From: a virus
IMG/VR virus record: IMGVR_UViG_3300045988_027174
Direction: 5' to 3' (one strand)
Length of the DNA stretch: 18,923 nt
The translations under genes were made by a program, and so were the position numbers. The notes under the pieces are model-generated. The model was not told where the DNA came from. It worked only from the letters and a program-made list of their open reading frames with translations, and did not search any database. This document shows positions 1-18,923 of the stretch, piece after piece (position 1 is the first letter of the stretch; the number at the start of each line of letters is the position of its first letter).

Positions 1-111
1 GTGGGAGGGGTGTGGGTTTGTGTGAAGATTTTCCCTTGTGGTTTTTTTTATTTGTGTATTATTTTTTTTTGTTCTGTGACGTCGTTGTCGCTTTGTTTTG
101 TTTATGCTTCT

Positions 112-140
112 ATTATATTTTTTTTACTCTTGCTTGTCAA
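112..140 (-). promoter_or_regulatory. Outward-facing consensus promoter in the left ITR (TTGACA-N17-TATAAT on the - strand)
   Basis: The + strand reads attata at 112-117 and tgtcaa at 135-140. On the - strand this is TTGACA, a 17-nt spacer, then TATAAT. Transcription would run toward position 1, with a predicted start near 105. Confidence 0.5.
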
Positions 141-150
141 CTTTTTTTAT

Positions 151-183
151 TTCGGGCGTGTCGTTTGTTTTCGGGCGTGTCGT
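151..183 (+). promoter_or_regulatory. Direct repeats TTCGGGCGTGTCGT x2, an operator-like element between the divergent ITR promoters
   Basis: ttcgggcgtgtcgt occurs at 151-164 and again at 170-183, a 19-bp period. The repeats sit over the -35 region of the inward promoter. They are mirrored at 18741-18773. Confidence 0.5.
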
Positions 184-192
184 GTTTTTTTG

Positions 193-201
193 TGTTATGA
201 T
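193..201 (+). promoter_or_regulatory. Extended -10 promoter (TGtTATGAT) for the ITR gene
   Basis: tgttatgat at 193-201 lies about 36 nt upstream of the ATG at 237. The SD aagggaaagga is at 217-227. No -35 match is present. Confidence 0.45.
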
Positions 202-236
202 GTGAGTATCAACTTCAAGGGAAAGGAAAAAATAAA

Positions 237-437
237 ATGATTAACAACAGCATCATCAAGGATTACGCTGAAGATTACATCCTGAACAGCGGTCAGGATC
301 TCAATGATTTCAACATTGATGTGATTGTTGAGAATCTGCATCATGTGGCGGTGGTTAATAATATGACTATCGAGGGTTATCAGGATTGTGATTCGTTTCC
401 GAGTGATGATTTTGTGGGAGCGTTTGAGGAGGTGTGA
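237..437 (+). CDS. ITR-encoded 66-aa hyper-acidic protein of unknown function (copy 1)
   Basis: ATG preceded by an AAGGGAAAGGA SD and followed by a hairpin terminator. Hand count gives 9 Asp and 5 Glu against 1 Lys and 0 Arg. An identical copy lies in the right ITR. Confidence 0.6.
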   Translation: MINNSIIKDYAEDYILNSGQDLNDFNIDVIVENLHHVAVVNNMTIEGYQDCDSFPSDDFVGAFEEV

Positions 438-448
438 TAGGTAATAGT

Positions 449-483
449 AAAGCCCCTAGGTGAGTAACCTAGGGGCTTTTCTT
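449..483 (+). terminator. Intrinsic terminator at the inner edge of the left ITR
   Basis: The stem pairs aaagcccctagg (449-460) with cctaggggcttt (468-479) around the loop tgagtaa. It is followed by tctt. Confidence 0.7.
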
Positions 484-509
484 GTGTCGTTTGTTTTACG
501 GCGTGTCGT
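484..509 (+). promoter_or_regulatory. Third copy of the GTGTCGTTTGTTTT-NN-GGCGTGTCGT module, just outside the ITR
   Basis: gtgtcgtttgttttacggcgtgtcgt at 484-509 matches gtgtcgtttgttttcgggcgtgtcgt at 157-182 at 24 of 26 positions. It ends 14 nt upstream of the TATAAT at 524-529. Confidence 0.5.
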
Positions 510-523
510 TGTTTTGTTTGTAC

Positions 524-529
524 TATAAT
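524..529 (+). promoter_or_regulatory. Candidate -10 box (TATAAT) for the early ORFan operon
   Basis: tataat at 524-529 lies 33 nt upstream of the ATG at 562. There is no consensus -35 and no TG at -15/-14. The repeat module occupies the -35 region. Confidence 0.35.
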
Positions 530-561
530 GAAAAATATCGACTACAAGGGAGGTAAATAAA

Positions 562-804
562 ATGGAAGATTATAAGCAAATCGCAGAAGAGGCGGGCGTT
601 AGTATCGAGGAGGTGCGGGAATTGATGGCGCGCGCTTACGTCAAGAGGGTTGAGACGCCATACTATCGCACTACCGAAGATGGGCGTAAGGTGGACGCGG
701 TTGAGGTGTTTTATGCCGTTTATGCTGATCATTGCTGCCCCGCCGTTGTCCTGGGAACTGGAGACACTATCGCGGAAGCGGTAGCCGACGCCTTGACGCA
801 CTGA
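562..804 (+). CDS. Early protein, 80 aa, possible helix-turn-helix at the N-terminus
   Basis: Strong SD AGGGAGGT lies 8 nt upstream of the ATG. The segment IAEEAGVSIEEVRELMARA resembles sigma-region-4 or other HTH segments. The function is not established. Confidence 0.6.
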   Translation: MEDYKQIAEEAGVSIEEVRELMARAYVKRVETPYYRTTEDGRKVDAVEVFYAVYADHCCPAVVLGTGDTIAEAVADALTH

Positions 805-819
805 TTGGAGGCAAACAGA

Positions 820-1053
820 ATGAATACTATTATCGCTATTAATTGGGCGCGTGATTGGGTTGTGGTTTCTTTTACTGATGTTGCGAATGTTTATACGTTT
901 AGTCTTGGCGAGGTTACTACCTTGAGTGACGCAAAAGCTCGCATTCGTCGAATAATGTTCAAGCAGTATGGTATTACGTTTTCTCGCATGAAGTTTGAGA
1001 AGTCTACTAATGCTATTGACTATTACCGCTCTAGCCGTGTTGAGGAGGTCTGA
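820..1053 (+). CDS. Early hypothetical protein, 77 aa
   Basis: ATG at 820 is preceded by GGAGG at 807-811. The track starts this ORF at TTG 805, and I prefer the ATG. It follows directly after the previous stop codon. Confidence 0.55.
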   Translation: MNTIIAINWARDWVVVSFTDVANVYTFSLGEVTTLSDAKARIRRIMFKQYGITFSRMKFEKSTNAIDYYRSSRVEEV

Positions 1054-1054
1054 T

Positions 1055-1285
1055 ATGTGGTATTTTATTATTACTAATGCTGGCTTCCAGGTGTTTGAGA
1101 TCATGTCTGATTGCGTGAAGCCTAGTAGCGTGTTTCACGCAACGTCGTTGAAAGCGTCGTTGGATGGAATATTGTCCCATATCCGTAACGCTTATGTTGG
1201 TCGTAACGTGAGTGTTGATATTGATAATGCTACGTTTGACATGGACTGCACTATGGTTGGCGTGGTGAAGGTGGTGTTGGTATAA
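1055..1285 (+). CDS. Early hypothetical protein, 76 aa
   Basis: ATG at 1055 is preceded by GAGGAGG at 1042-1048 and lies 1 nt after the upstream stop. The track ORF 995-1285 is in the same frame. Confidence 0.55.
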   Translation: MWYFIITNAGFQVFEIMSDCVKPSSVFHATSLKASLDGILSHIRNAYVGRNVSVDIDNATFDMDCTMVGVVKVVLV

Positions 1286-1452
1286 TGTTTGGCATGATTG
1301 TTGCCGTTTGCATTCTTTCCGTACTGTTTCTTACGGTGGCTGCTACGGTGTTTTGTGAGTTGCCGCGTGATTGGCGTGACACGTTTTGTTTTTTGGTCAT
1401 GCTTGCAGTAAGCGTGACTATGGTTTTGGTTTTTGTCATGAAAGGTTTTTGA
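1285..1452 (+). CDS. Unannotated 55-aa small membrane protein with two hydrophobic helices
   Basis: My hand translation is MFGMIVAVCILSVLFLTVAATVFCELPRDWRDTFCFLVMLAVSVTMVLVFVMKGF. Its start overlaps the upstream stop as TAATG. It is below the 60-aa cutoff of the ORF track. Confidence 0.45.
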   Translation: MFGMIVAVCILSVLFLTVAATVFCELPRDWRDTFCFLVMLAVSVTMVLVFVMKGF

Positions 1453-1453
1453 A

Positions 1454-1699
1454 ATGGCTGAGCATGATATGAAGGTTGCCATGTTTTCCTCGCAGTTTGT
1501 GGGGGGTAATGTGGAATTGTGGTATTGTCCACATGGCCAACGATACGAGCTGCGGTATGCCGTCCGATTCCGCACCCCAGCCGGGGTTTGCAACGCCACC
1601 GCTCTATGCGCGTATGATGCGGGAGATGGCAGCCAGGTAGTCGATCTTATGCTGGACGCTATCGATATCGCGCGCACGCCACTATTGGATAGGGATTGA
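1454..1699 (+). CDS. Early hypothetical protein, 81 aa
   Basis: The ATG lies 1 nt after the stop of the 55-aa ORF, and the ORF fills the gap in a tightly packed same-strand array. The SD is weak. Confidence 0.5.
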   Translation: MAEHDMKVAMFSSQFVGGNVELWYCPHGQRYELRYAVRFRTPAGVCNATALCAYDAGDGSQVVDLMLDAIDIARTPLLDRD

Positions 1700-1701
1700 T
1701 C

Positions 1702-1905
1702 ATGTATTTTTGCGGTTGGCTGCATTCATGGACTTGCAAGGACTGCGCTTATGCGGATGTGTATTGGCGTTTACGTGCGTTTTGGGCGGGAGTGAAACGT
1801 AGGGGTGACGCTTTTACACCGCCTAAACGGTGCCCAAGTACGGATTTATGGTTTGACATGTGGTGGCATGGTGCCGAGTCCGATAGTGAGGGATTGGAGT
1901 TTTAG
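1702..1905 (+). CDS. Early hypothetical protein, 67 aa, Trp/Cys-rich
   Basis: ATG at 1702 lies just after the upstream TGA (1697-1699), with AGGGA upstream. The track lists a TTG at 1696 as the start. Confidence 0.5.
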   Translation: MYFCGWLHSWTCKDCAYADVYWRLRAFWAGVKRRGDAFTPPKRCPSTDLWFDMWWHGAESDSEGLEF

Positions 1906-1907
1906 TC

Positions 1908-2084
1908 ATGTATGAAACTTTTGTCGCATTAGCGTATTTGCGTCATGGTAATAAACCCCCTATCGAAGTGGGGTATGCCACCTCGTACGATAAGGCGGCT
2001 GAGCTGATTCGAAAGTGGGCTGCGGTGCCCTCGCATACGAAAAATATCGCATATTTCAGGGTGGAAAGGCGTTATTATGTTTAA
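1908..2084 (+). CDS. Unannotated 58-aa hypothetical protein
   Basis: My hand translation is MYETFVALAYLRHGNKPPIEVGYATSYDKAAELIRKWAAVPSHTKNIAYFRVERRYYV. GGAG lies 9 nt upstream. The ORF overlaps the next ATG (2077) by 8 nt and fills an otherwise empty gap. Confidence 0.4.
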   Translation: MYETFVALAYLRHGNKPPIEVGYATSYDKAAELIRKWAAVPSHTKNIAYFRVERRYYV

Positions 2085-2595
2085 CCGTGGCAATGATCGT
2101 ACACCCGTCTATCGTATGCGTCGGTTTGATGACGCGATCATGGAATCACCCCGTATCGTCAAGGCTACGAGAGGTCGAAAGCGTGAGCTGAACTTGGAAC
2201 AGTATGACATGGGCTATGGTGATTACGAATCATGCTGTAGGGCGGTTAACATGCTGTGTGAACTGTGGCGAGAAGCGCCTAGCGTATGGTTTACACAAGC
2301 GGTGATTACCGTCTCGCAGATTTGCGGAAGCCTGACCATACGGGACGGATTGGCCGCCGCATTGTCCCGCACGTATGACGTGGAATACTTGGACGGTTCC
2401 GTGAATCCTCCTAATCTGATTGCATGGTGTGCGGTCTGCGCTGTCAAGGGTGCTACCTCGTATGACTGTTGCACGATTTTTAACAGTCCTCAAGCTCAAA
2501 ATCTGATTATCGTCGTGTTCAAAAATTTTGACAGACTGGACACGACACGGTATAATGATATCGAATTAGAAAAGATTTTACTGCAAGGGAGGTAA
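2077..2595 (+). CDS. Early hypothetical protein, 172 aa
   Basis: Longest ORF in this region on the gene-bearing strand, with GAAAGG upstream. I recognise no motif in it. Confidence 0.6.
   Translation: MFNRGNDRTPVYRMRRFDDAIMESPRIVKATRGRKRELNLEQYDMGYGDYESCCRAVNMLCELWREAPSVWFTQAVITVSQICGSLTIRDGLAAALSRTYDVEYLDGSVNPPNLIAWCAVCAVKGATSYDCCTIFNSPQAQNLIIVVFKNFDRLDTTRYNDIELEKILLQGR
2528..2556 (+). promoter_or_regulatory. Perfect consensus promoter TTGACA-N17-TATAAT ahead of the replication module
   Basis: ttgaca at 2528-2533, a 17-nt spacer, and tataat at 2551-2556. It is embedded in the 3' end of ORF 2077-2595, about 43 nt upstream of the TTG start at 2599. Confidence 0.6.
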
Positions 2596-2598
2596 AAA

Positions 2599-2913
2599 TT
2601 GGCTAGAACCAAAACCGATATTTTCCGTACGCGCGTCTACGCCGTGCTCAAGGGCATGGAACTTGTTGACGGTGATTTTATGGAAGCTGAGCACGTTATT
2701 GACGGGCGCTTGAAAGACGCGCGTGCGTATTCGGTTCGTGCGAAGAAACTGTTTCCAAACTTCATTCCACGTTCCATCAATATTTTCTCACAAAAAGTCT
2801 CTATGAATGAGGAAATTTTTTACAAGTATGCGACTTTCGAGGAGCCACAAGAATGGAACCCCGAAGAACACACAAAACGACACGCCGACATTGAAAATAA
2901 CGACGGCATGTGA
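2599..2913 (+). CDS. Putative phi29 p6-like double-stranded DNA-binding (histone-like) protein, 104 aa, TTG start
   Basis: GGGAGG at 2587-2592 lies 6 nt upstream of the TTG. The protein has a basic N-terminus, a central ...VDG(D/E)... segment and an acidic C-terminal tail. Its size and its position just upstream of the SSB match phi29 gene 6 as I recall it. Confidence 0.45.
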   Translation: MARTKTDIFRTRVYAVLKGMELVDGDFMEAEHVIDGRLKDARAYSVRAKKLFPNFIPRSINIFSQKVSMNEEIFYKYATFEEPQEWNPEEHTKRHADIENNDGM

Positions 2914-2980: not shown

Positions 2981-3415
2981 ATGGAAAACACCAACACCGC
3001 ACTTGTCGCATTCAACACCGAAAGCACCGAACTCGGCACTGTCCAGCACTTTATCGACACTTCCACCCGTGAAGGTAAGATCAAGCTTTACTCGGCATTG
3101 CAGAATGCCGAAAAACTCGACGAACATTTGAACGAAACCTTGAACATGGTGAATGCTGTTGCACAGGCTGTGCAGGTGACGGATGATCAGACCGGCGAGA
3201 TCTCCAACACCGTGCGCGTCATCATCGTAACCGACGATAACAAGGCATACGCCGCCACCTCCCCAACTCTCGCAGCCGGATTGAATACCATGTTTGGCAT
3301 CTTCGGCACCCCGAACACTTGGGACGCGCCGCTGGCTATCAAGGTGGTGGAACGCCGTTCCCGCCGTGGCTTCAAGTTTTTCAGCATTGAGCCGGTGGAC
3401 GAGGAAGCCAAGTGA
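2981..3415 (+). CDS. Single-stranded DNA-binding protein, phi29 p5-like, 144 aa
   Basis: The SD is GGGAAGG. The N-terminus MENTN..., the GKIKLYSA segment and the C-terminal IKVVERRSRRGFKFFSI parallel phi29 p5 as I recall it (MENTN...GQIKIFNA...KVKVVQGTSSKGNVFFSL). The gene sits upstream of the TP and polymerase genes. Confidence 0.65.
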   Translation: MENTNTALVAFNTESTELGTVQHFIDTSTREGKIKLYSALQNAEKLDEHLNETLNMVNAVAQAVQVTDDQTGEISNTVRVIIVTDDNKAYAATSPTLAAGLNTMFGIFGTPNTWDAPLAIKVVERRSRRGFKFFSIEPVDEEAK

Positions 3416-3418
3416 GCT

Positions 3419-3427
3419 TGCTATAAT
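3419..3427 (+). promoter_or_regulatory. Extended -10 promoter (TGcTATAAT)
   Basis: tgctataat at 3419-3427 lies 4 nt after the SSB stop and 71 nt upstream of the ATG at 3498. Confidence 0.5.
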
Positions 3428-3497: not shown

Positions 3498-4454
3498 ATG
3501 TCTCGGAAGCAAAAGCATGTCAAGGCACGTCAGGCCGCACAGGCGCGTGCCGCACGCAATATTAAACAGCTTGGCGCTTACTCTCACTCGAATCTTGCAA
3601 AAACCGCCGACAAACAATTGGTCAATATCGCTAAAACGCTCGGCAAGGAATGGGAGAAACAGAAGAAACAAGCCATTGCGGAAGCGAAAGCAACCACCTA
3701 TCACGCCACCGCAGTCGAGAAGCCGACGAAAAAAGACATTATGTTTGCCCAGCGCACGCCCATCACTGACGCGCAGATAAAAGCGGAACCTGCGTCTAAA
3801 CGGCGCAAACTCTTGCGTCAGCAGCAGCGGAAGATCAATGCGGCACGGCAGAAGATCAGCGATTGGAACCGCGAACAGGCCATGCCGAAACGTAGTGTAT
3901 ATGATCAGCGCATGGCAGAACTTGAAGGCACTACGGGCGAGGGTTTCGGGCGTAACCAGATCATCCCTTCCAAGCTTACGGACTTTCTGCAAATGACCAA
4001 TGTCCTCTCGGATGAAGCATTCGTGCGCAGCCAATTGGAGAGCGGACACCGCAACGAACTGCGGGAGCAGATACATGATGCCGCCGAAATCTTGGGCTTG
4101 CGCACCGAACGGAAACGCGAACCGTCCAAAAAGCGGGGTAAGCAAAGCAAGGACTTGTACGGCGAACATGAGTGGCCGTCCTACATGTCGCGCGGACGTT
4201 ATGAAGTCTTTGAAAAAATTCTCGCCACCACGTTAGGGTCGAAACGGCTGAAACGATTCCGTAGTCTATCCAAAGCGCAAAAACGCGCGTTTATCGAACA
4301 GACGGACGCCCCCCGTATCGTGTTCGATTGGACGGTATATGACCCCGTCCGACACGGTTTTGCTTCGGTGTTCCGAGATAACAGCGAGGGGTATCAGCGT
4401 TCCCGCAAACAGTTCGACCGGTGGATGTCGGAAGCGGTCGCGCTGGAAAAGTAG
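3498..4454 (+). CDS. Putative terminal protein (replication primer), 318 aa
   Basis: The gene lies immediately upstream of the protein-primed polymerase, as in phi29. The protein is strongly basic and Lys/Arg/Gln-rich, especially at the N-terminus. The assignment rests on synteny and composition only. Confidence 0.6.
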   Translation: MSRKQKHVKARQAAQARAARNIKQLGAYSHSNLAKTADKQLVNIAKTLGKEWEKQKKQAIAEAKATTYHATAVEKPTKKDIMFAQRTPITDAQIKAEPASKRRKLLRQQQRKINAARQKISDWNREQAMPKRSVYDQRMAELEGTTGEGFGRNQIIPSKLTDFLQMTNVLSDEAFVRSQLESGHRNELREQIHDAAEILGLRTERKREPSKKRGKQSKDLYGEHEWPSYMSRGRYEVFEKILATTLGSKRLKRFRSLSKAQKRAFIEQTDAPRIVFDWTVYDPVRHGFASVFRDNSEGYQRSRKQFDRWMSEAVALEK

Positions 4455-4480
4455 CGGTTGAAAACAAGGGAAGTTATACT

Positions 4481-5932
4481 ATGGCGGTGAGCGATAATAG
4501 GGTAGGATTGTGGTGTGCGGATAACGTCATACGCTTTACGGACGGTACCGCATTGCGTGACATTACCGCGCCCAATCGCCTTTTGGCGTCCATCATGGCG
4601 GGCGGAAAACTCACCGTCTATATGACTGACCCCGACGTTTTAAGCCCGTTTATGGCTCACGTCGTGCACTCGCTCCCCCACAACGAACACAACGCGAATT
4701 TGAGCTGGGATGCGATAGTTTCCCAAAAGGGCAAGTTTTTTAGTTTTACCGTGCGTGTCGACCGTGAGAATTCCGCTCGTTTTTTCGATATATCGAATCT
4801 CTTGCGGGAAAACTGTAGGCTTACCATGACCGACACACAACTGCTCAATATTCTGCGTGAGTACGATAATCGTGGTTTGTGTAAGATTACGGCGGGCGGT
4901 GCAAGTATGGAGGCTTTCGCGTCCGGCGAGTGGAAATGGTATTACGACAAATTCCCGCAGCTTGACCCGGAGGATAAAAAGTCATTGCATGATGCTTATA
5001 TTGGCGGATTCATGACCGCAAAGGAAGGGGCGTATGATCGCGCTATCGACATTGACTGCAATAGCATGTATCCGTCCATACTGCGAGACGAATGGCTGCC
5101 ATGGGGCTTGCCGGAACCATACGACGGCAAATACGTGCAAGATGATGATATGCCGCTGCATTGCGACGAAATTACGTTCCGCGCGGAACTCAAGCCAAAC
5201 GGATACCCCTTTTTGCTTGACAACCGCAGTATCTACGGACTTAATAGGCTCACGTCTACTCGTGGTTATATTACGCGCGTATTGACCGATATAGATCAAC
5301 GGCTTTTATACGAGAATTATGAAGTGAGCGTCTACAAGTACATTAGGGGGTGGAAATTCCGACGCTCCAAAGGATTCTTCAGGTCGTTCGTCGATGAATG
5401 GGGGGGGTTGAAGCAGAAGGCGACGGGAGAGAAACGACAAATAGCAAAACTCATTATGAACGCCCTCGTGGGCAAGATGGCGAGTCTACCAAAAGGCTCG
5501 GTCATGCTCCCACTTTCTAAAGACGGCATCACCTTGGATTGGGATATCGCGCAACGTGAGGAGTCGAATCTGAAAACCGATTATCTGCCCGTGCCCGTAT
5601 GGGTCAATGCCTACGCGAGACGAAAGCTTATGGGCGTGTGCCACGCGAACGCCGACCGAATCTTGTACGCGAATACGGACGGGTGTATTTTGAGCGGCTG
5701 GGAGCCGGTGAAATCATGCGATATCCACCCCACCGAACTGGGCAAGTGGAAGATCGCCGCACGATACAAAAAATTGACTATCCTTGGAATAAATCGGTAT
5801 CAGGGATGGAGGGATGATAATGAGGTTGACGTGTGCATGGCTGGAAACATGTTTTCGGAACCTATCTCCTACGAGCAATTTCGGCATGGCGTGCAAGTCC
5901 TGGACGATTACGGTACATTGGTTATGCTATAA
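4481..5932 (+). CDS. Protein-primed family-B DNA polymerase, 483 aa
   Basis: ATG at 4481 follows the SD AAGGGAAG; the track starts the ORF at GTG 4421, inside the TP gene. Motif A is DIDCNSMYPS, motif B is KLIMNALVGK and motif C is YANTDG. GKYVQDDDMPLH parallels phi29 GKYVWDEDYPLH in TPR1, and a TPR2-length insert follows motif B. Confidence 0.92.
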   Translation: MAVSDNRVGLWCADNVIRFTDGTALRDITAPNRLLASIMAGGKLTVYMTDPDVLSPFMAHVVHSLPHNEHNANLSWDAIVSQKGKFFSFTVRVDRENSARFFDISNLLRENCRLTMTDTQLLNILREYDNRGLCKITAGGASMEAFASGEWKWYYDKFPQLDPEDKKSLHDAYIGGFMTAKEGAYDRAIDIDCNSMYPSILRDEWLPWGLPEPYDGKYVQDDDMPLHCDEITFRAELKPNGYPFLLDNRSIYGLNRLTSTRGYITRVLTDIDQRLLYENYEVSVYKYIRGWKFRRSKGFFRSFVDEWGGLKQKATGEKRQIAKLIMNALVGKMASLPKGSVMLPLSKDGITLDWDIAQREESNLKTDYLPVPVWVNAYARRKLMGVCHANADRILYANTDGCILSGWEPVKSCDIHPTELGKWKIAARYKKLTILGINRYQGWRDDNEVDVCMAGNMFSEPISYEQFRHGVQVLDDYGTLVML

Positions 5933-5933
5933 T
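5925..5933 (+). promoter_or_regulatory. Extended -10 promoter (TGcTATAAT) overlapping the polymerase stop codon
   Basis: tgctataat at 5925-5933. It has the same TGCTATAATA flavour as the promoter at 3419. Confidence 0.5.
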
Positions 5934-5939
5934 ACTTAC

Positions 5940-6105
5940 GTCTTGTGAGCGTCGATTTTCGACTGGGAACGACACGGGTCGGACTGCCACGGCTGAGAAT
6001 GCCGCCGACCATGACTTGCTACCGTGGCGGTAGTGCCCTACGATTATCAATCCGCGCTCTGATAGGACGATTCAGACCCTCCGTGATTGGAGGGTCATTT
6101 TATTT
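5940..6105 (+). ncRNA. Candidate structured non-coding RNA of about 165 nt (possible packaging-RNA analogue or terminated leader)
   Basis: The region is bracketed by the promoter at 5925-5933 and the terminator at 6075-6107. It holds no ORF with an SD; the only ATG opens an 11-codon frame. A 10-bp helix is possible between actgccacgg (5983-5992) and ccgtggcggt (6022-6031). Smaller helices include ttatca (6044-6049) with tgatag (6060-6065). Confidence 0.4.
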
Positions 6106-6116: not shown

Positions 6117-6125
6117 TGATATAAT
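6117..6125 (+). promoter_or_regulatory. Extended -10 promoter (TGaTATAAT), candidate late promoter
   Basis: tgatataat at 6117-6125 lies 37 nt upstream of the ATG at 6162. It is overlapped by the 8-bp palindrome tcacgtga (6112-6119). Confidence 0.55.
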
Positions 6126-16185: not shown

Positions 16186-16194
16186 TGATATAAT
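16186..16194 (+). promoter_or_regulatory. Extended -10 promoter (TGaTATAAT)
   Basis: tgatataat at 16186-16194 lies 5 nt after the tail lysin stop codon. It has the same GTGATATAAT flavour as the promoter at 6117. Confidence 0.5.
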
Positions 16195-18440: not shown

Positions 18441-18475
18441 AAGAAAAGCCCCTAGGTTACTCACCTAGGGGCTTT
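18441..18475. terminator. Bidirectional terminator hairpin at the inner edge of the right ITR
   Basis: This is the same hairpin as 449-483. On the + strand it lies 12 nt after the endolysin stop and is followed by ttactatt. On the - strand it follows the right copy of the ITR gene with a ttttctt tract. Confidence 0.65.
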
Positions 18476-18722: not shown

Positions 18723-18731
18723 ATCATAACA
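18723..18731 (-). promoter_or_regulatory. Extended -10 promoter (TGtTATGAT) for the right ITR gene copy
   Basis: Mirror image of 193-201. Confidence 0.45.
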
Positions 18732-18783: not shown

Positions 18784-18812
18784 TTGACAAGCAAGAGTAA
18801 AAAAAATATAAT
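18784..18812 (+). promoter_or_regulatory. Outward-facing consensus promoter in the right ITR (TTGACA-N17-TATAAT)
   Basis: ttgaca at 18784-18789, a 17-nt spacer, and tataat at 18807-18812. It points toward the right terminus and mirrors 112-140. Confidence 0.5.
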
Positions 18813-18923
18813 AGAAGCATAAACAAAACAAAGCGACAACGACGTCACAGAACAAAAAAAAATAATACACAAATAAAAAAAACCACAAGGGAAAATCTTC
18901 ACACAAACCCACACCCCTCCCAC

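What the first reader, a model, noticed from the sequence alone, without database searches (positions are those of the whole stretch)
112..140. Perfect consensus promoters pointing outward, about 105 nt from each genome end
TTGACA-N17-TATAAT is present on the - strand at 112-140 and on the + strand at 18784-18812. A 12-of-12 match with optimal spacing is expected far less than once by chance in a genome of this size. It would produce a run-off RNA of roughly 105 nt that reaches the physical end of the linear DNA. That RNA is A/C-rich (...ccacaagggaaaatcttcacacaaacccacacccctcccac) with no start codon, and by eye has little potential for internal pairing. It is divergent from, and back-to-back with, the inward ITR promoter, with the direct repeats at 151-183 lying between them. 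Possible roles include transcriptional opening of the replication origin at the terminus, clearing proteins from the ends, a regulatory or decoy RNA, or occlusion of the inward promoter. phi29 also transcribes a non-coding RNA toward its left end, but that RNA is highly structured and this one does not appear to be.
Basis: seen in the sequence. Interest (0 to 1): 0.7.

Follow-up and report, generated by a model that had tools for sequence, protein, structure and literature searches.

The report
Outward host-type promoter in phage terminal repeats
Each end of this small linear Bifidobacterium phage genome carries a perfectly consensus, evolutionarily conserved host-type promoter that fires outward across the last ~105 bp (the replication origin), a device that also exists, unexplained, in two other phi29-like phage lineages.

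Summary
TTGACA-N17-TATAAT lies at 112-140 (-) and 18784-18812 (+), inside a 496-bp inverted terminal repeat (ITR) of a phi29-like, protein-primed Bifidobacterium podophage. It is about 81% identical to phage BP1. Shuffles give 0 such matches.

Among 35 distinct relatives' ends, 24 keep all 12 bases and 9 differ by one base. Spacer length and distance to the end are fixed. The hexamers and two flanking A-tracts are 5-10 times less variable than the spacer and the start region, which is a classic promoter footprint. The host genus uses exactly this consensus.

The predicted 105-nt run-off RNA has no start codon and essentially no structure. It is not a prohead RNA (pRNA). A separate, covariation-supported structured RNA at about 5940-6100 fills that slot.

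The device is not unique. Cp-1/Cp-7 and asccphi28 carry perfect outward promoters in their ITRs. Their depositors annotated these but never explained them. A sister Bifidobacterium clade lacks one.

Most likely it is a real sigma-A promoter whose act of transcription into the terminal origin matters, for example by opening or clearing it. That mechanism is inferred, not shown. It is a new member of a known but unexplained kind, of moderate interest.

The parts
1..496 (.). Left inverted terminal repeat (ITR). Position 1 is the physical 5' end, GTGGGAGGGG.
   Evidence: The two arms are 99% complementary. The BP1 record has a sequencing adapter joined directly to GTGGGAGG. The terminal motif always lies at contig ends.
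18428..18923 (.). Right ITR, a mirror copy of 1-496.
135..140 (-). -35 hexamer TTGACA of the left outward promoter (P_out).
   Evidence: Exact match. Conserved in 31 of 35 distinct ends. Pairwise diversity is 0.08, against 0.46 in the adjacent spacer.
112..117 (-). -10 hexamer TATAAT of the left P_out.
   Evidence: Exact match. Conserved or changed at one base in 34 of 35 ends. Diversity 0.07.
118..125 (-). Conserved A8 tract in the spacer just upstream of -10. The other 9 spacer bases (126-134) vary freely.
   Evidence: Diversity is 0.045 in the tract against 0.46 in the rest of the spacer. See the alignment.
142..152 (-). Conserved A-rich tract (AAATAAAAAAA) directly upstream of -35. It looks like an UP element. 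That reading is an inference.
   Evidence: Diversity 0.03. See the alignment.
1..105 (-). Predicted run-off transcript of the left P_out. The start is about A105 and the 3' end is at the genome terminus. It is A/C-rich, non-coding and unstructured.
   Evidence: Minimum free energy -6.1 kcal/mol. No start codon (sequence). No Rfam match. No transcript data are available.
18784..18812 (+). Right-end copy of P_out: -35 at 18784-18789 and -10 at 18807-18812. The predicted start is about 18819, with run-off at 18923.
1..78 (.). Nearly invariant terminal block, the presumed protein-primed replication origin. It includes a TTCCC box at 31-35.
   Evidence: Diversity is 0.05 over 17-78. A TTCCC(C) box at a similar distance from the end is also seen in Cp-1/7, asccphi28, Av-1, Squall, Curie and the PZA right end.
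151..183 (+). Two direct repeats, TTCGGGCGTGTCGT, with a 19-nt period, lying between the divergent promoters. The second sits where the inward promoter's -35 would be. They are a presumed regulator site.
   Evidence: The same motif recurs at 500-509 upstream of the TATAAT at 524-529, and inverted at 2877-2886. A partial inverted copy lies in the spacer of the 2528 promoter.
193..201 (+). Inward ITR promoter, an extended -10 (TGTTATGAT) with no -35. It drives the ITR gene at 237-437, which ends at the terminator 449-479.
   Evidence: Conserved in relatives.
2528..2556 (+). The only other full-consensus promoter in the genome. It lies upstream of the TTG-start gene 2599-2913, the SSB gene 2981-3415, the putative terminal protein gene 3498-4454 and the DNA polymerase gene 4421-5932.
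   Evidence: Exact match. Conserved in about 70 relatives. Gene identities follow the BP1 and BD811P annotations.

Best explanation
The element is a genuine, strong promoter for the host's housekeeping sigma factor. It is present once in each inverted terminal repeat and points at the genome end. Host RNA polymerase would start at about position 105 (18819 at the right end) and transcribe the last ~105 bp, which are the protein-primed replication origin. It would run into the terminal-protein-capped end and release a short, non-coding, unstructured RNA.

I propose that the act of transcription is what is selected, not the RNA. The template for this polymerase is the 5'-protein-linked strand. 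The strand left unpaired in the transcription bubble is therefore the 3'-ended strand, which the terminal-protein/DNA-polymerase complex must read to initiate. Outward transcription would thus transiently open, or clear of bound proteins, the G-rich terminal duplex and favour initiation. This is the job that protein p6 does in phi29.

Shown: the motif, its conservation pattern, its geometry, the nature of the RNA, and its recurrence in other lineages.
Inferred: that it fires in vivo, the start site, and the whole link to replication.
For: 1. The match is a perfect 12/12 with a 17-nt spacer, with 0 expected by chance. TATAAT/TTGACA with a 17-bp optimum is the mapped Bifidobacterium vegetative consensus, best conserved at highly expressed genes (PMC5746004).

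2. There is a promoter-shaped phylogenetic footprint in 35 distinct ends.
- 24 are perfect and 9 have one change. The spacer is always 17.
- Pairwise diversity is 0.07-0.08 in the hexamers and 0.03-0.045 in the two A-tracts. It is 0.46 in the spacer and 0.41 in the start region.

3. There are no indels between the promoter and the end, except in L035. The downstream 78 nt are nearly invariant, as expected for an origin.

4. The RNA carries no structure and no ORF, so there is little for RNA-level function to act on.

5. Perfect outward promoters occur in the ITRs of two other lineages: Cp-1/Cp-7 at 150-177, and asccphi28 at 373-401, where they are the only perfect matches in that genome.
- Their downstream sequences are unrelated and of different lengths.
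- That argues for a role of transcription rather than of a particular RNA.

6. The window's gene-expressing promoters are seven extended -10 sites. The only other full-consensus promoter drives the SSB, terminal-protein and polymerase genes. This suggests a shared class with the replication module.

7. A bidirectional terminator at 449-479 and 18445-18475 insulates the ends from other transcription.

8. In phi29, opening of the ends limits initiation. Early phi29 transcripts do run to the left genome end (PMC11476376).
Against: - There are no transcript data for any of these phages. In the Cp-1 record the outward promoter has no mapped start site, while 14 other promoters do.
- The sister BD811P1-like clade has no outward consensus promoter, and three other actinobacterial phi29-like phages have none with at least 10 of 12 matches in their terminal 500 nt.
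- One relative lost the -35 by a 23-nt deletion at both ends, and one has a degenerate -10. The element is therefore dispensable in some backgrounds.
- asccphi28 has an annotated terminator 23-75 nt from the end. If it works, it would stop polymerase before the terminus.
- Outward transcription is head-on to forks that start at the end, so a strong promoter could hinder rather than help replication.
- The RNA:DNA hybrid would be C/A-rich RNA on G/T-rich DNA. That is not the composition that favours stable R-loops (general knowledge).
Confidence: 0.4

Rival explanations
1. The RNA itself is the product that matters. This would be an abundant, unstructured, C/A-rich small RNA made from both ends. 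It could act as a decoy or sponge for a host RNA-binding factor such as Rho, which loads on C-rich, G-poor unstructured RNA. It could act as an anti-Shine-Dalgarno mimic, because its 3' end ...CCCCUCCCAC resembles the 16S rRNA tail and is complementary to the phage's GGGAGG ribosome-binding sites. Or it could be a cofactor in packaging.
For: - The strong promoter and fixed 3' end would give a defined, abundant RNA.
- The 3' 78 nt of the RNA are nearly invariant.
- The RNA is unstructured and untranslated, as Rho substrates are (general knowledge).
- In phi29, the known outward non-coding transcript near the end is a functional RNA, the pRNA (PMC11476376).
- The Av-1 record annotates a 'packaging RNA' that reads toward the right end.
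Against: - The invariance of the last 78 nt is equally explained by origin function at the DNA level.
- The 5' third of the RNA varies freely and has no conserved hairpin.
- G/T-rich ITR leaders also occur in the clade without the promoter, so the composition is not RNA-driven.
- The outward units of Cp-1/7 and asccphi28 share no sequence, length or structure with this one.
- It fails the tests for a pRNA that could be run: minimum free energy -6.1 kcal/mol and no Rfam hit.
- A covarying structured RNA at 5940-6100 fits the pRNA slot better.
Confidence: 0.2
2. The site works as a regulatory partner of the inward ITR promoter. One version is that it is a high-affinity sink that competes for polymerase or occludes the neighbouring promoter. 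Another is that its firing on unsupercoiled linear DNA generates local negative supercoiling that helps the -35-less inward promoter to open. In either version the GGCGTGTCGT repeats between the two would act as a shared operator.
For: - The two promoters are back to back, with predicted starts about 103 bp apart, so their footprints abut.
- A conserved pair of direct repeats lies between them, at the -35 position of the inward promoter.
- The inward promoter is an extended -10 with no -35.
- The same divergent layout is seen in Cp-1/Cp-7, with the outward promoter at 150-177 and the inward one at 222-250, and in asccphi28 with P1 and P2.
Against: - Most relatives carry an insert of about 110 nt between the outward promoter and the inward one. 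That roughly doubles their distance without affecting the outward promoter, which argues against tight coupling.
- The fixed distance to the genome end is not explained by this model.
- Other extended -10 promoters in the genome work without a divergent partner.
Confidence: 0.15
3. It is a relic or a by-product. It could be a leftover of an ancestral end-proximal pRNA-type transcription unit. Or the hexamers could be kept for a DNA-level reason unrelated to RNA polymerase, such as binding sites for an origin protein. In either case there would be no current transcriptional role.
For: - In phi29-like phages the classical outward unit at an end is the pRNA gene. Here the pRNA-like RNA sits elsewhere.
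- TTGACA also occurs as both half-sites of a palindrome, TTGACACTGTGTCAA, in the ITR insert of many relatives.
- Two natural variants with damaged promoters exist.
Against: - Selection keeps both hexamers, the exact 17-nt spacing and two A-tracts, while neighbouring bases vary about 6-fold more. That is the signature of RNA polymerase recognition and not of a relic.
- The chance of an unrelated site mimicking the full consensus is negligible.
- Independent recurrence in two other lineages points the same way.
Confidence: 0.07

Closest known systems
Outward -35/-10 signals in the ITRs of Streptococcus phages Cp-1 and Cp-7 (RefSeq NC_001825, NC_042114)
   Same: - They are phi29-like, protein-primed podophages with long ITRs (236 and about 350 bp).
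- They carry perfect TTGACA and TATAAT hexamers pointing at the end, about 145 nt from each terminus.
- They sit back to back with inward early promoters, and the downstream stretch is non-coding.
- A TTCCCC box lies about 35 nt from the end.
   Different: - The spacer is 16 nt, not 17.
- There is no sequence similarity to the window's ITR, and the DNA polymerase is only about 26% identical.
- In those phages the inward ITR promoters are also perfect consensus, so the outward one does not stand out.
- The records list it only as a sequence signal, with no mapped start.
- The downstream RNA is U/A/G-rich rather than A/C-rich.
Putative promoter P1/P8 with terminator T1/T4 in the 577-bp ITR of Lactococcus phage asccphi28 (NC_010363)
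   Same: - TTGACA-N17-TATAAT points outward in each ITR.
- These are the only perfect matches in that genome.
- The function is unassigned, and the literature says there is no evidence for a pRNA in this phage (PMC7823558).
   Different: - The promoter lies about 370-400 nt from the end.
- The transcript would be about 300 nt and moderately structured, with z = -2.7.
- It would end at an annotated hairpin terminator 23-75 nt before the terminus rather than running off.
phi29 promoter A1 / prohead RNA (pRNA), and run-off of the left early operon
   Same: - It is a host-polymerase promoter near a genome end that fires toward that end and makes a non-coding RNA.
- phi29 early transcripts reach the physical left end because there is no terminator (PMC11476376).
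   Different: - The phi29 RNA is 174 nt, highly structured, required for packaging, encoded at one end only, and ends 146 nt before the terminus.
- The window's RNA is unstructured and does not match the Rfam pRNA model.
- A separate structured RNA exists at 5940-6100.
Transcription-dependent steps at genome ends or origins in other viruses: transcriptional activation of lambda ori, the T7 phiOR promoter near the right end, and the vaccinia telomere-resolution late promoter (from general knowledge, not tested here)
   Same: In each case a promoter is placed so that polymerase traverses an origin or terminus. The act of transcription, rather than a gene product, is what promotes the DNA transaction.
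   Different: The replication and maturation chemistry differs: theta or concatemer replication, or hairpin telomeres, rather than protein priming. None is homologous. No such role has been shown for any protein-primed genome.

Membership tests
Housekeeping (sigma-70 / sigma-A type) bacterial promoter | -35 TTGACA-like and -10 TATAAT-like hexamers separated by 17 +/- 1 bp | tested here: met
   12 of 12 bases match with a 17-nt spacer at both ends. None of 200 shuffles gave a match.
Housekeeping (sigma-70 / sigma-A type) bacterial promoter | The host's polymerase recognises this consensus. | tested here: met
   Relatives infect Bifidobacterium. The mapped B. breve promoters give TATAAT/TTGACA with a 17-bp optimum (PMC5746004).
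Housekeeping (sigma-70 / sigma-A type) bacterial promoter | Purifying selection falls on the recognition elements and not on the bases between them. | tested here: met
   In 35 distinct ends, hexamer diversity is 0.07-0.08 against 0.46 in the spacer and 0.41 in the start region. The spacer length is invariant.
Housekeeping (sigma-70 / sigma-A type) bacterial promoter | Primary transcripts start about 7 nt downstream of -10. | not testable with these tools
   No transcriptome data are available. The start at A105 / 18819 is a prediction.
phi29-type prohead RNA (pRNA) gene | An outward-reading non-coding unit near a genome end | tested here: met
   The position and orientation fit. The phi29 layout is described.
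phi29-type prohead RNA (pRNA) gene | A stable multi-helix fold (three-way junction, about 120 nt core) | tested here: not met
   The 105-nt RNA has a minimum free energy of -6.1 kcal/mol and is nearly all unpaired. No conserved hairpin appears in relatives.
phi29-type prohead RNA (pRNA) gene | A match to the curated RNA family model | tested here: not met
   No Rfam match in the window at E <= 1, other than a chance CRISPR-repeat hit elsewhere.
Outward ITR promoter of ITR-bearing phi29-like phages (Cp-1/Cp-7, asccphi28). This is a positional class, not a homology family. | It lies inside the ITR and so is present at both ends, points at the terminus, has consensus hexamers, has non-coding sequence downstream, and is divergent from an inward early promoter. 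| tested here: met
   Window. Comparators.
Outward ITR promoter of ITR-bearing phi29-like phages (Cp-1/Cp-7, asccphi28). This is a positional class, not a homology family. | Sequence homology of the unit between lineages | tested here: not met
   The megablast search of the whole window, ITR included, found only Bifidobacterium-type phage records, and by inspection the ITR sequences share only the hexamers and a short TTCCC(C) box. The resemblance is functional or positional.
Transcriptionally activated replication origin | Initiation frequency depends on transcription through or next to the origin. | not testable with these tools
   Only the geometry can be read. The non-template strand of the outward unit is the 3'-ended template for protein-primed initiation (sequence, inference).

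The most novel reading that the evidence does not exclude
Outward consensus promoters in the terminal repeats would be a general device of ITR-bearing protein-primed phages whose terminal genes all point inward. Host RNA polymerase would be recruited to transcribe into the terminus. It would melt the end and hand the 3' template strand to the terminal-protein/polymerase complex. It would thereby act as a host-supplied origin-opening factor in place of a p6-like protein. This would be the first case of transcriptional activation of a protein-primed origin.
Probability: 0.25. Interest if true: 0.75.

Novelty: new member of a known kind. Interest (0 to 1): 0.45.

Why it matters
Protein-primed replication has been worked out almost entirely in phi29. 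There, a phage protein (p6) opens the ends, and opening limits initiation.

Three separate phi29-like lineages keep their best promoter pointing at the origin with nothing to express. If that promoter serves replication, host RNA polymerase may be part of the origin machinery. Transcription and replication would then be coupled at the ends of these genomes.

This is directly testable with phage BP1, which is cultured on Bifidobacterium pseudocatenulatum, or with Cp-1 and asccphi28.

There is also a practical point. These gut Bifidobacterium phages are candidate tools for microbiome work. Most deposited genomes lack their true ends and therefore lack this element.

If the promoter instead proves to be only a polymerase sink or a relic, the finding is a well-documented but ordinary regulatory detail.

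Tried and rejected
1. Chance match. Rejected: none of 200 shuffles gave a match, and the hexamers are conserved in relatives.

2. The window ends are not physical ends. Rejected on three grounds: the adapter junction in BP1, contigs that start at the same base, and the terminal motif always lying at contig ends. Three internal hits (L124, L131, L133) were unrelated chance matches.

3. The outward RNA is a pRNA. Rejected on fold and on Rfam. A covariance model of the structured RNA at 5940-6100 found nothing in ten distant phages, so it could not be tied to the known pRNAs either.

4. A conserved hairpin in the variable patch 76-91, suggested by the terminator-like hit. Rejected: about half of the relatives cannot form it, and it works only on the + strand.

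5. Strand-displacement mutational bias as the full explanation of the G/T skew. Only weakly supported. The skew is strong in the left 2 kb and in the ITRs but weak at 17-18 kb.

6. Looking for a p6-like protein or a regulator among the early genes. No Pfam or PHROG family was found, apart from a sub-threshold helix-turn-helix-like hit in ORF 562-804.

7. The isolate records BD811P1, P2 and P3 were uninformative. Their ends are truncated to within 38-55 nt of the first gene.

8. My recollection that asccphi28 has a pRNA in its ITR was wrong. The literature says there is no evidence for one.

9. The original Cp-1 paper (Martin et al. 1996) and Meijer et al. 2001 are not held in the library. What they say about the outward promoter could not be checked.

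Full report
WHAT THE WINDOW IS

The 18,923-bp window is a complete linear genome of a phi29-like podophage of Bifidobacterium.
- It is about 81% identical over 73% of its length to Bifidobacterium phage BP1, whose host is B. pseudocatenulatum. It is more distantly related to the B. dentium phages BD811P1-3.
- It has a 496-bp inverted terminal repeat (ITR).
- All genes lie on the + strand except the right-hand copy of a small ITR gene.
- The gene order is: early genes, SSB, putative terminal protein, type-B DNA polymerase, capsid, tail, portal, lysis genes interleaved with the phi29-type packaging ATPase.

The window ends are real molecular ends.
- In the BP1 GenBank record an Illumina adapter is fused directly to GTGGGAGG.
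- Several independent metagenomic contigs begin at GTGGGAGGGG.
- An internal-looking 25-mer of the terminal region is found only 17-54 nt from contig ends in every related contig.

THE OBSERVATION

An exact search finds TTGACA-N17-TATAAT at 112-140 (-), at 18784-18812 (+), and once more at 2528-2556 (+). Two hundred dinucleotide-preserving shuffles gave none.

The predicted start is A105 (18819 on the right), which gives a 105-nt run-off RNA. That RNA has no ATG, GTG or TTG (sequence; no ORF). It is about 85% A+C and folds to only -6.1 kcal/mol.

- Two GGCGTGTCGT-containing direct repeats lie at 155-164 and 174-183.
- They sit between the outward promoter and an inward extended -10 promoter, TGTTATGAT at 193-201. 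That promoter drives the ITR gene at 237-437, which is followed by a strong bidirectional terminator at 449-479.

IS IT MORE THAN A MOTIF?

I collected more than 85 related genomes from IMG/VR and metagenomes. Thirty-five distinct contig ends span the promoter region.

| Form | Number of ends |
|---|---|
| Perfect consensus | 24 |
| TACAAT | 4 |
| TTAACA | 3 |
| CATAAT | 1 |
| TATAAC | 1 |
| Degenerate -10 (TCTAAC, L035) | 1 |
| -35 lost to a 23-nt deletion between two T-runs, at both ends (L099/L101) | 1 |

The spacer is 17 nt in every intact copy. No indel separates the promoter from the terminus, apart from small ones in L035.

Mean pairwise diversity per site shows where selection falls.

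| Region | Diversity |
|---|---|
| -10 hexamer | 0.07 |
| -35 hexamer | 0.08 |
| A8 tract abutting -10 | 0.045 |
| A-rich tract just upstream of -35 (UP-element-like) | 0.03 |
| Other nine spacer bases | 0.46 |
| Discriminator / start region | 0.41 |

This is the footprint expected of RNA polymerase recognition. It is hard to reconcile with any other kind of site.

The host genus uses exactly this consensus. Promoter mapping in B. breve gave TATAAT and TTGACA with a 17-bp optimum, best conserved at highly expressed genes (PMC5746004).

I therefore regard it as a real promoter, with about 0.8 confidence on that step alone. No transcript has been seen.

WHERE IT SITS IN THE PHAGE'S OWN PROMOTER REPERTOIRE

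The phage's gene-expressing promoters are of the extended -10 type. TGNTATRAT occurs seven times, against 1.4 expected. Every copy is in the sense direction. Six lie just upstream of a gene (193, 1278, 3419, 6117, 16186 and the right ITR copy at 18723), and the seventh (5925) lies upstream of the structured RNA described below.

Full-consensus promoters with an upstream A-tract are only three: the two outward ITR copies and the one at 2528. The promoter at 2528 is conserved in about 70 relatives. It precedes the SSB, terminal-protein and polymerase genes.

So the outward promoter shares its class with the promoter of the replication module.

WHAT THE RNA IS NOT

In phi29 the outward non-coding unit near the left end is the prohead RNA, so that was the obvious hypothesis. 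It fails.
- The RNA cannot fold.
- Its 5' third varies freely, with no conserved hairpin.
- Rfam gives nothing.

The genome also contains a much better candidate for a structured packaging-type RNA, between the polymerase gene and the late operon.
- It has its own invariant extended -10, TGCTATAAT at 5925-5933.
- Its body of about 160 nt folds to -66 kcal/mol with z = -3.7.
- It ends at an intrinsic terminator at 6075-6096.
- In 42-81 relatives, 16 of 37 predicted pairs show compensatory changes.
- An internal loop (GCCAC) and a hairpin loop (GUGGC) are complementary and co-vary. All five ACCAC variants carry GUGGU.
- Its place just downstream of the polymerase gene matches the place of pRNA in phi29-type gene order.

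COMPOSITION

The 5'-ended strand of the ITR leader is almost purely G/T. The same bias is present in the ITR leaders of the BD811P1-like clade, which has no outward promoter. The A/C richness of the predicted RNA is therefore more likely a property of the DNA ends than a selected RNA feature.

A strand-displacement mutational bias may contribute. However, the mirror-image skew outside the right ITR is weak.

IS IT UNIQUE?

No. I fetched other protein-primed podophages.

| Phage | Outward promoter in ITR | Position from each end | Notes |
|---|---|---|---|
| Cp-1, Cp-7 (Streptococcus) | TTGACA-N16-TATAAT | 150-177 | ITRs of 236 and ~350 bp. Depositors annotated -35/-10 signals. No mapped start, unlike 14 other Cp-1 promoters. 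|
| asccphi28 (Lactococcus) | TTGACA-N17-TATAAT | 373-401 | 577-bp ITR. Annotated 'putative promoter P1/P8'. Followed by 'putative terminator T1/T4' 23-75 nt from the end. The only perfect matches in that genome. |

The motor literature states that there is no evidence for a pRNA in asccphi28 (PMC7823558).

The three outward units share no sequence, length or fold.

| Lineage | RNA length | Fold |
|---|---|---|
| Window | 105 nt | Unstructured |
| Cp-7 | ~144 nt | No more structured than shuffles |
| asccphi28 | ~300 nt | Moderately structured |

Several phages have no outward consensus promoter.
- The BD811P1-like Bifidobacterium clade (L086, L090, L091).
- Curtobacterium phage Squall, Arthrobacter phage Mendel, Microbacterium phage Curie and Actinomyces phage Av-1.
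- In several of these, coding operons themselves run off one end. Examples are Mendel genes 1-5, the right-hand genes of Squall and Curie, and the phi29 left early operon.

This suggests a pattern in which at least one terminus is usually reached by outward transcription. Phages whose terminal genes all point inward would then carry a dedicated outward promoter. The BD811P1 clade is an apparent exception, and the sample is small.

MECHANISM

The best-supported reading is that the act of transcription into the terminus is what is selected.

The geometry fits, as read from the sequence.
- The outward polymerase uses the 5'-protein-linked strand as its template.
- The unpaired non-template strand is therefore the 3'-ended strand that the terminal-protein/polymerase complex must read.

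In phi29, opening of the end limits initiation.

No p6-like protein could be recognised among the early genes here, but they have no recognisable families at all.

Points in favour:
- the recurrence of the device with unrelated RNAs in three lineages;
- the fixed distance to the end;
- the shared promoter class with the replication operon.

Points against:
- the absence of the device from sister clades, and the two natural loss variants;
- the terminator in asccphi28;
- outward transcription is head-on to forks that start at the end.

I put this mechanism at about 0.4.

The rivals are:
- a functional unstructured RNA, such as a Rho or ribosome-binding-site decoy (0.2);
- a regulatory partnership with the inward promoter through the shared repeats or local supercoiling (0.15). 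This is weakened by the ~110-nt insert that separates the two promoters in most relatives;
- a relic or a non-polymerase site (0.07). This is contradicted by the footprint.

VERDICT

It is a new, well-documented member of a class that already exists in database annotations for Cp-1/Cp-7 and asccphi28, but that nobody has explained.

Interest is moderate. The element itself is ordinary in kind. Its recurrence at protein-primed origins gives a concrete, testable hypothesis of transcription-assisted initiation.

Noticed in passing
window 5925-6104 (+): A conserved structured non-coding RNA lies between the DNA polymerase gene and the late operon. It has its own invariant extended -10 (TGCTATAAT at 5925-5933), a body of about 160 nt (-66 kcal/mol, z = -3.7) and a terminator at 6075-6096. 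In relatives, 16 of 37 pairs show compensatory changes. An internal loop GCCAC and a hairpin loop GUGGC are complementary and co-vary: all 5 ACCAC variants carry GUGGU. It has three-way-junction topology and lies syntenic with phi29 pRNA, so it is a candidate pRNA equivalent for Bifidobacterium phi29-like phages. It has no Rfam hit, and a covariance model of it found nothing in ten distant phages.
   Followed up: partly
window 2528-2556 (+): A third perfect TTGACA-N17-TATAAT is conserved in about 70 relatives. It lies inside the 3' end of ORF 2077-2595 and upstream of the SSB, terminal-protein and polymerase genes. Its spacer contains GACACGACACGG, the inverted form of the GTGTCG repeat found in the ITR.
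   Followed up: partly
window 155-164, 174-183, 500-509 (+), 2877-2886 (-), and mirror copies in the right ITR: A GGCGTGTCGT motif sits where the -35 would be for the inward ITR promoter and for the TATAAT at 524-529. It is probably the site of an unidentified regulator. ORF 562-804 has a sub-threshold Sigma70_r4-like helix-turn-helix hit.
   Followed up: partly
window 31-35; also L137 and L143 (~34-40), L141 (~17-22), L140 (~36-41), L135, L139, L136 right end, L138 right end, L090, L091: A short TTCCC(C) box followed by A/T lies 16-40 nt from the termini of many otherwise unrelated phi29-like phages from Bifidobacterium, Streptococcus, Lactococcus, Actinomyces, Curtobacterium, Microbacterium and Bacillus. 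It may be a shared origin signal. It was seen by eye only, with no statistics.
   Followed up: no
window 193-201, 1278-1286, 3419-3427, 5925-5933, 6117-6125, 16186-16194 (+), 18723-18731 (-): Seven TGNTATRAT extended -10 sites occur, against 1.4 expected. All are in the sense direction: six lie just upstream of genes and one (5925-5933) upstream of the structured RNA. This is the phage's standard promoter type and lacks a -35.
   Followed up: partly
L001 (GenBank PQ571273, phage BP1) 1-290 and right end: The deposited BP1 genome starts with about 240 nt duplicated from its own 661-778 region plus an Illumina adapter before the true end. Its right end is truncated about 88 nt short of the terminus. 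BD811P1-3 records also lack their ITR leaders.
   Followed up: yes
L059 165-285 and the homologous part of most relatives (L008, L011, L012, L023, L025 and others): Most relatives carry an insert of about 110 nt in the ITR between the first GTGTCG repeat and the inward promoter. It starts with the perfect palindrome ATTGACACTGTGTCAAT. It continues with a hairpin-rich stretch (GTTACGGTAACGTAACCGTA...) that ends in a T-run. This may be an operator plus a small RNA. The window and BP1 lack it.
   Followed up: no
L090 21-39, L091 14-35: In the BD811P1-like clade a GGGA...TCCC hairpin followed by a T-run lies 14-40 nt from the end. This clade has no outward consensus promoter. L090 has a lone outward TATAAT about 50 nt from the end, without a -35.
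   Followed up: no
window 1-2500 and ITRs: There is a strong G/T excess on the + strand in the ITR leader and the early region (GC skew +0.3 to +0.4, AT skew down to -0.7). It fades after about 2.5 kb, and only a weak mirror-image skew is seen near the right end.
   Followed up: partly
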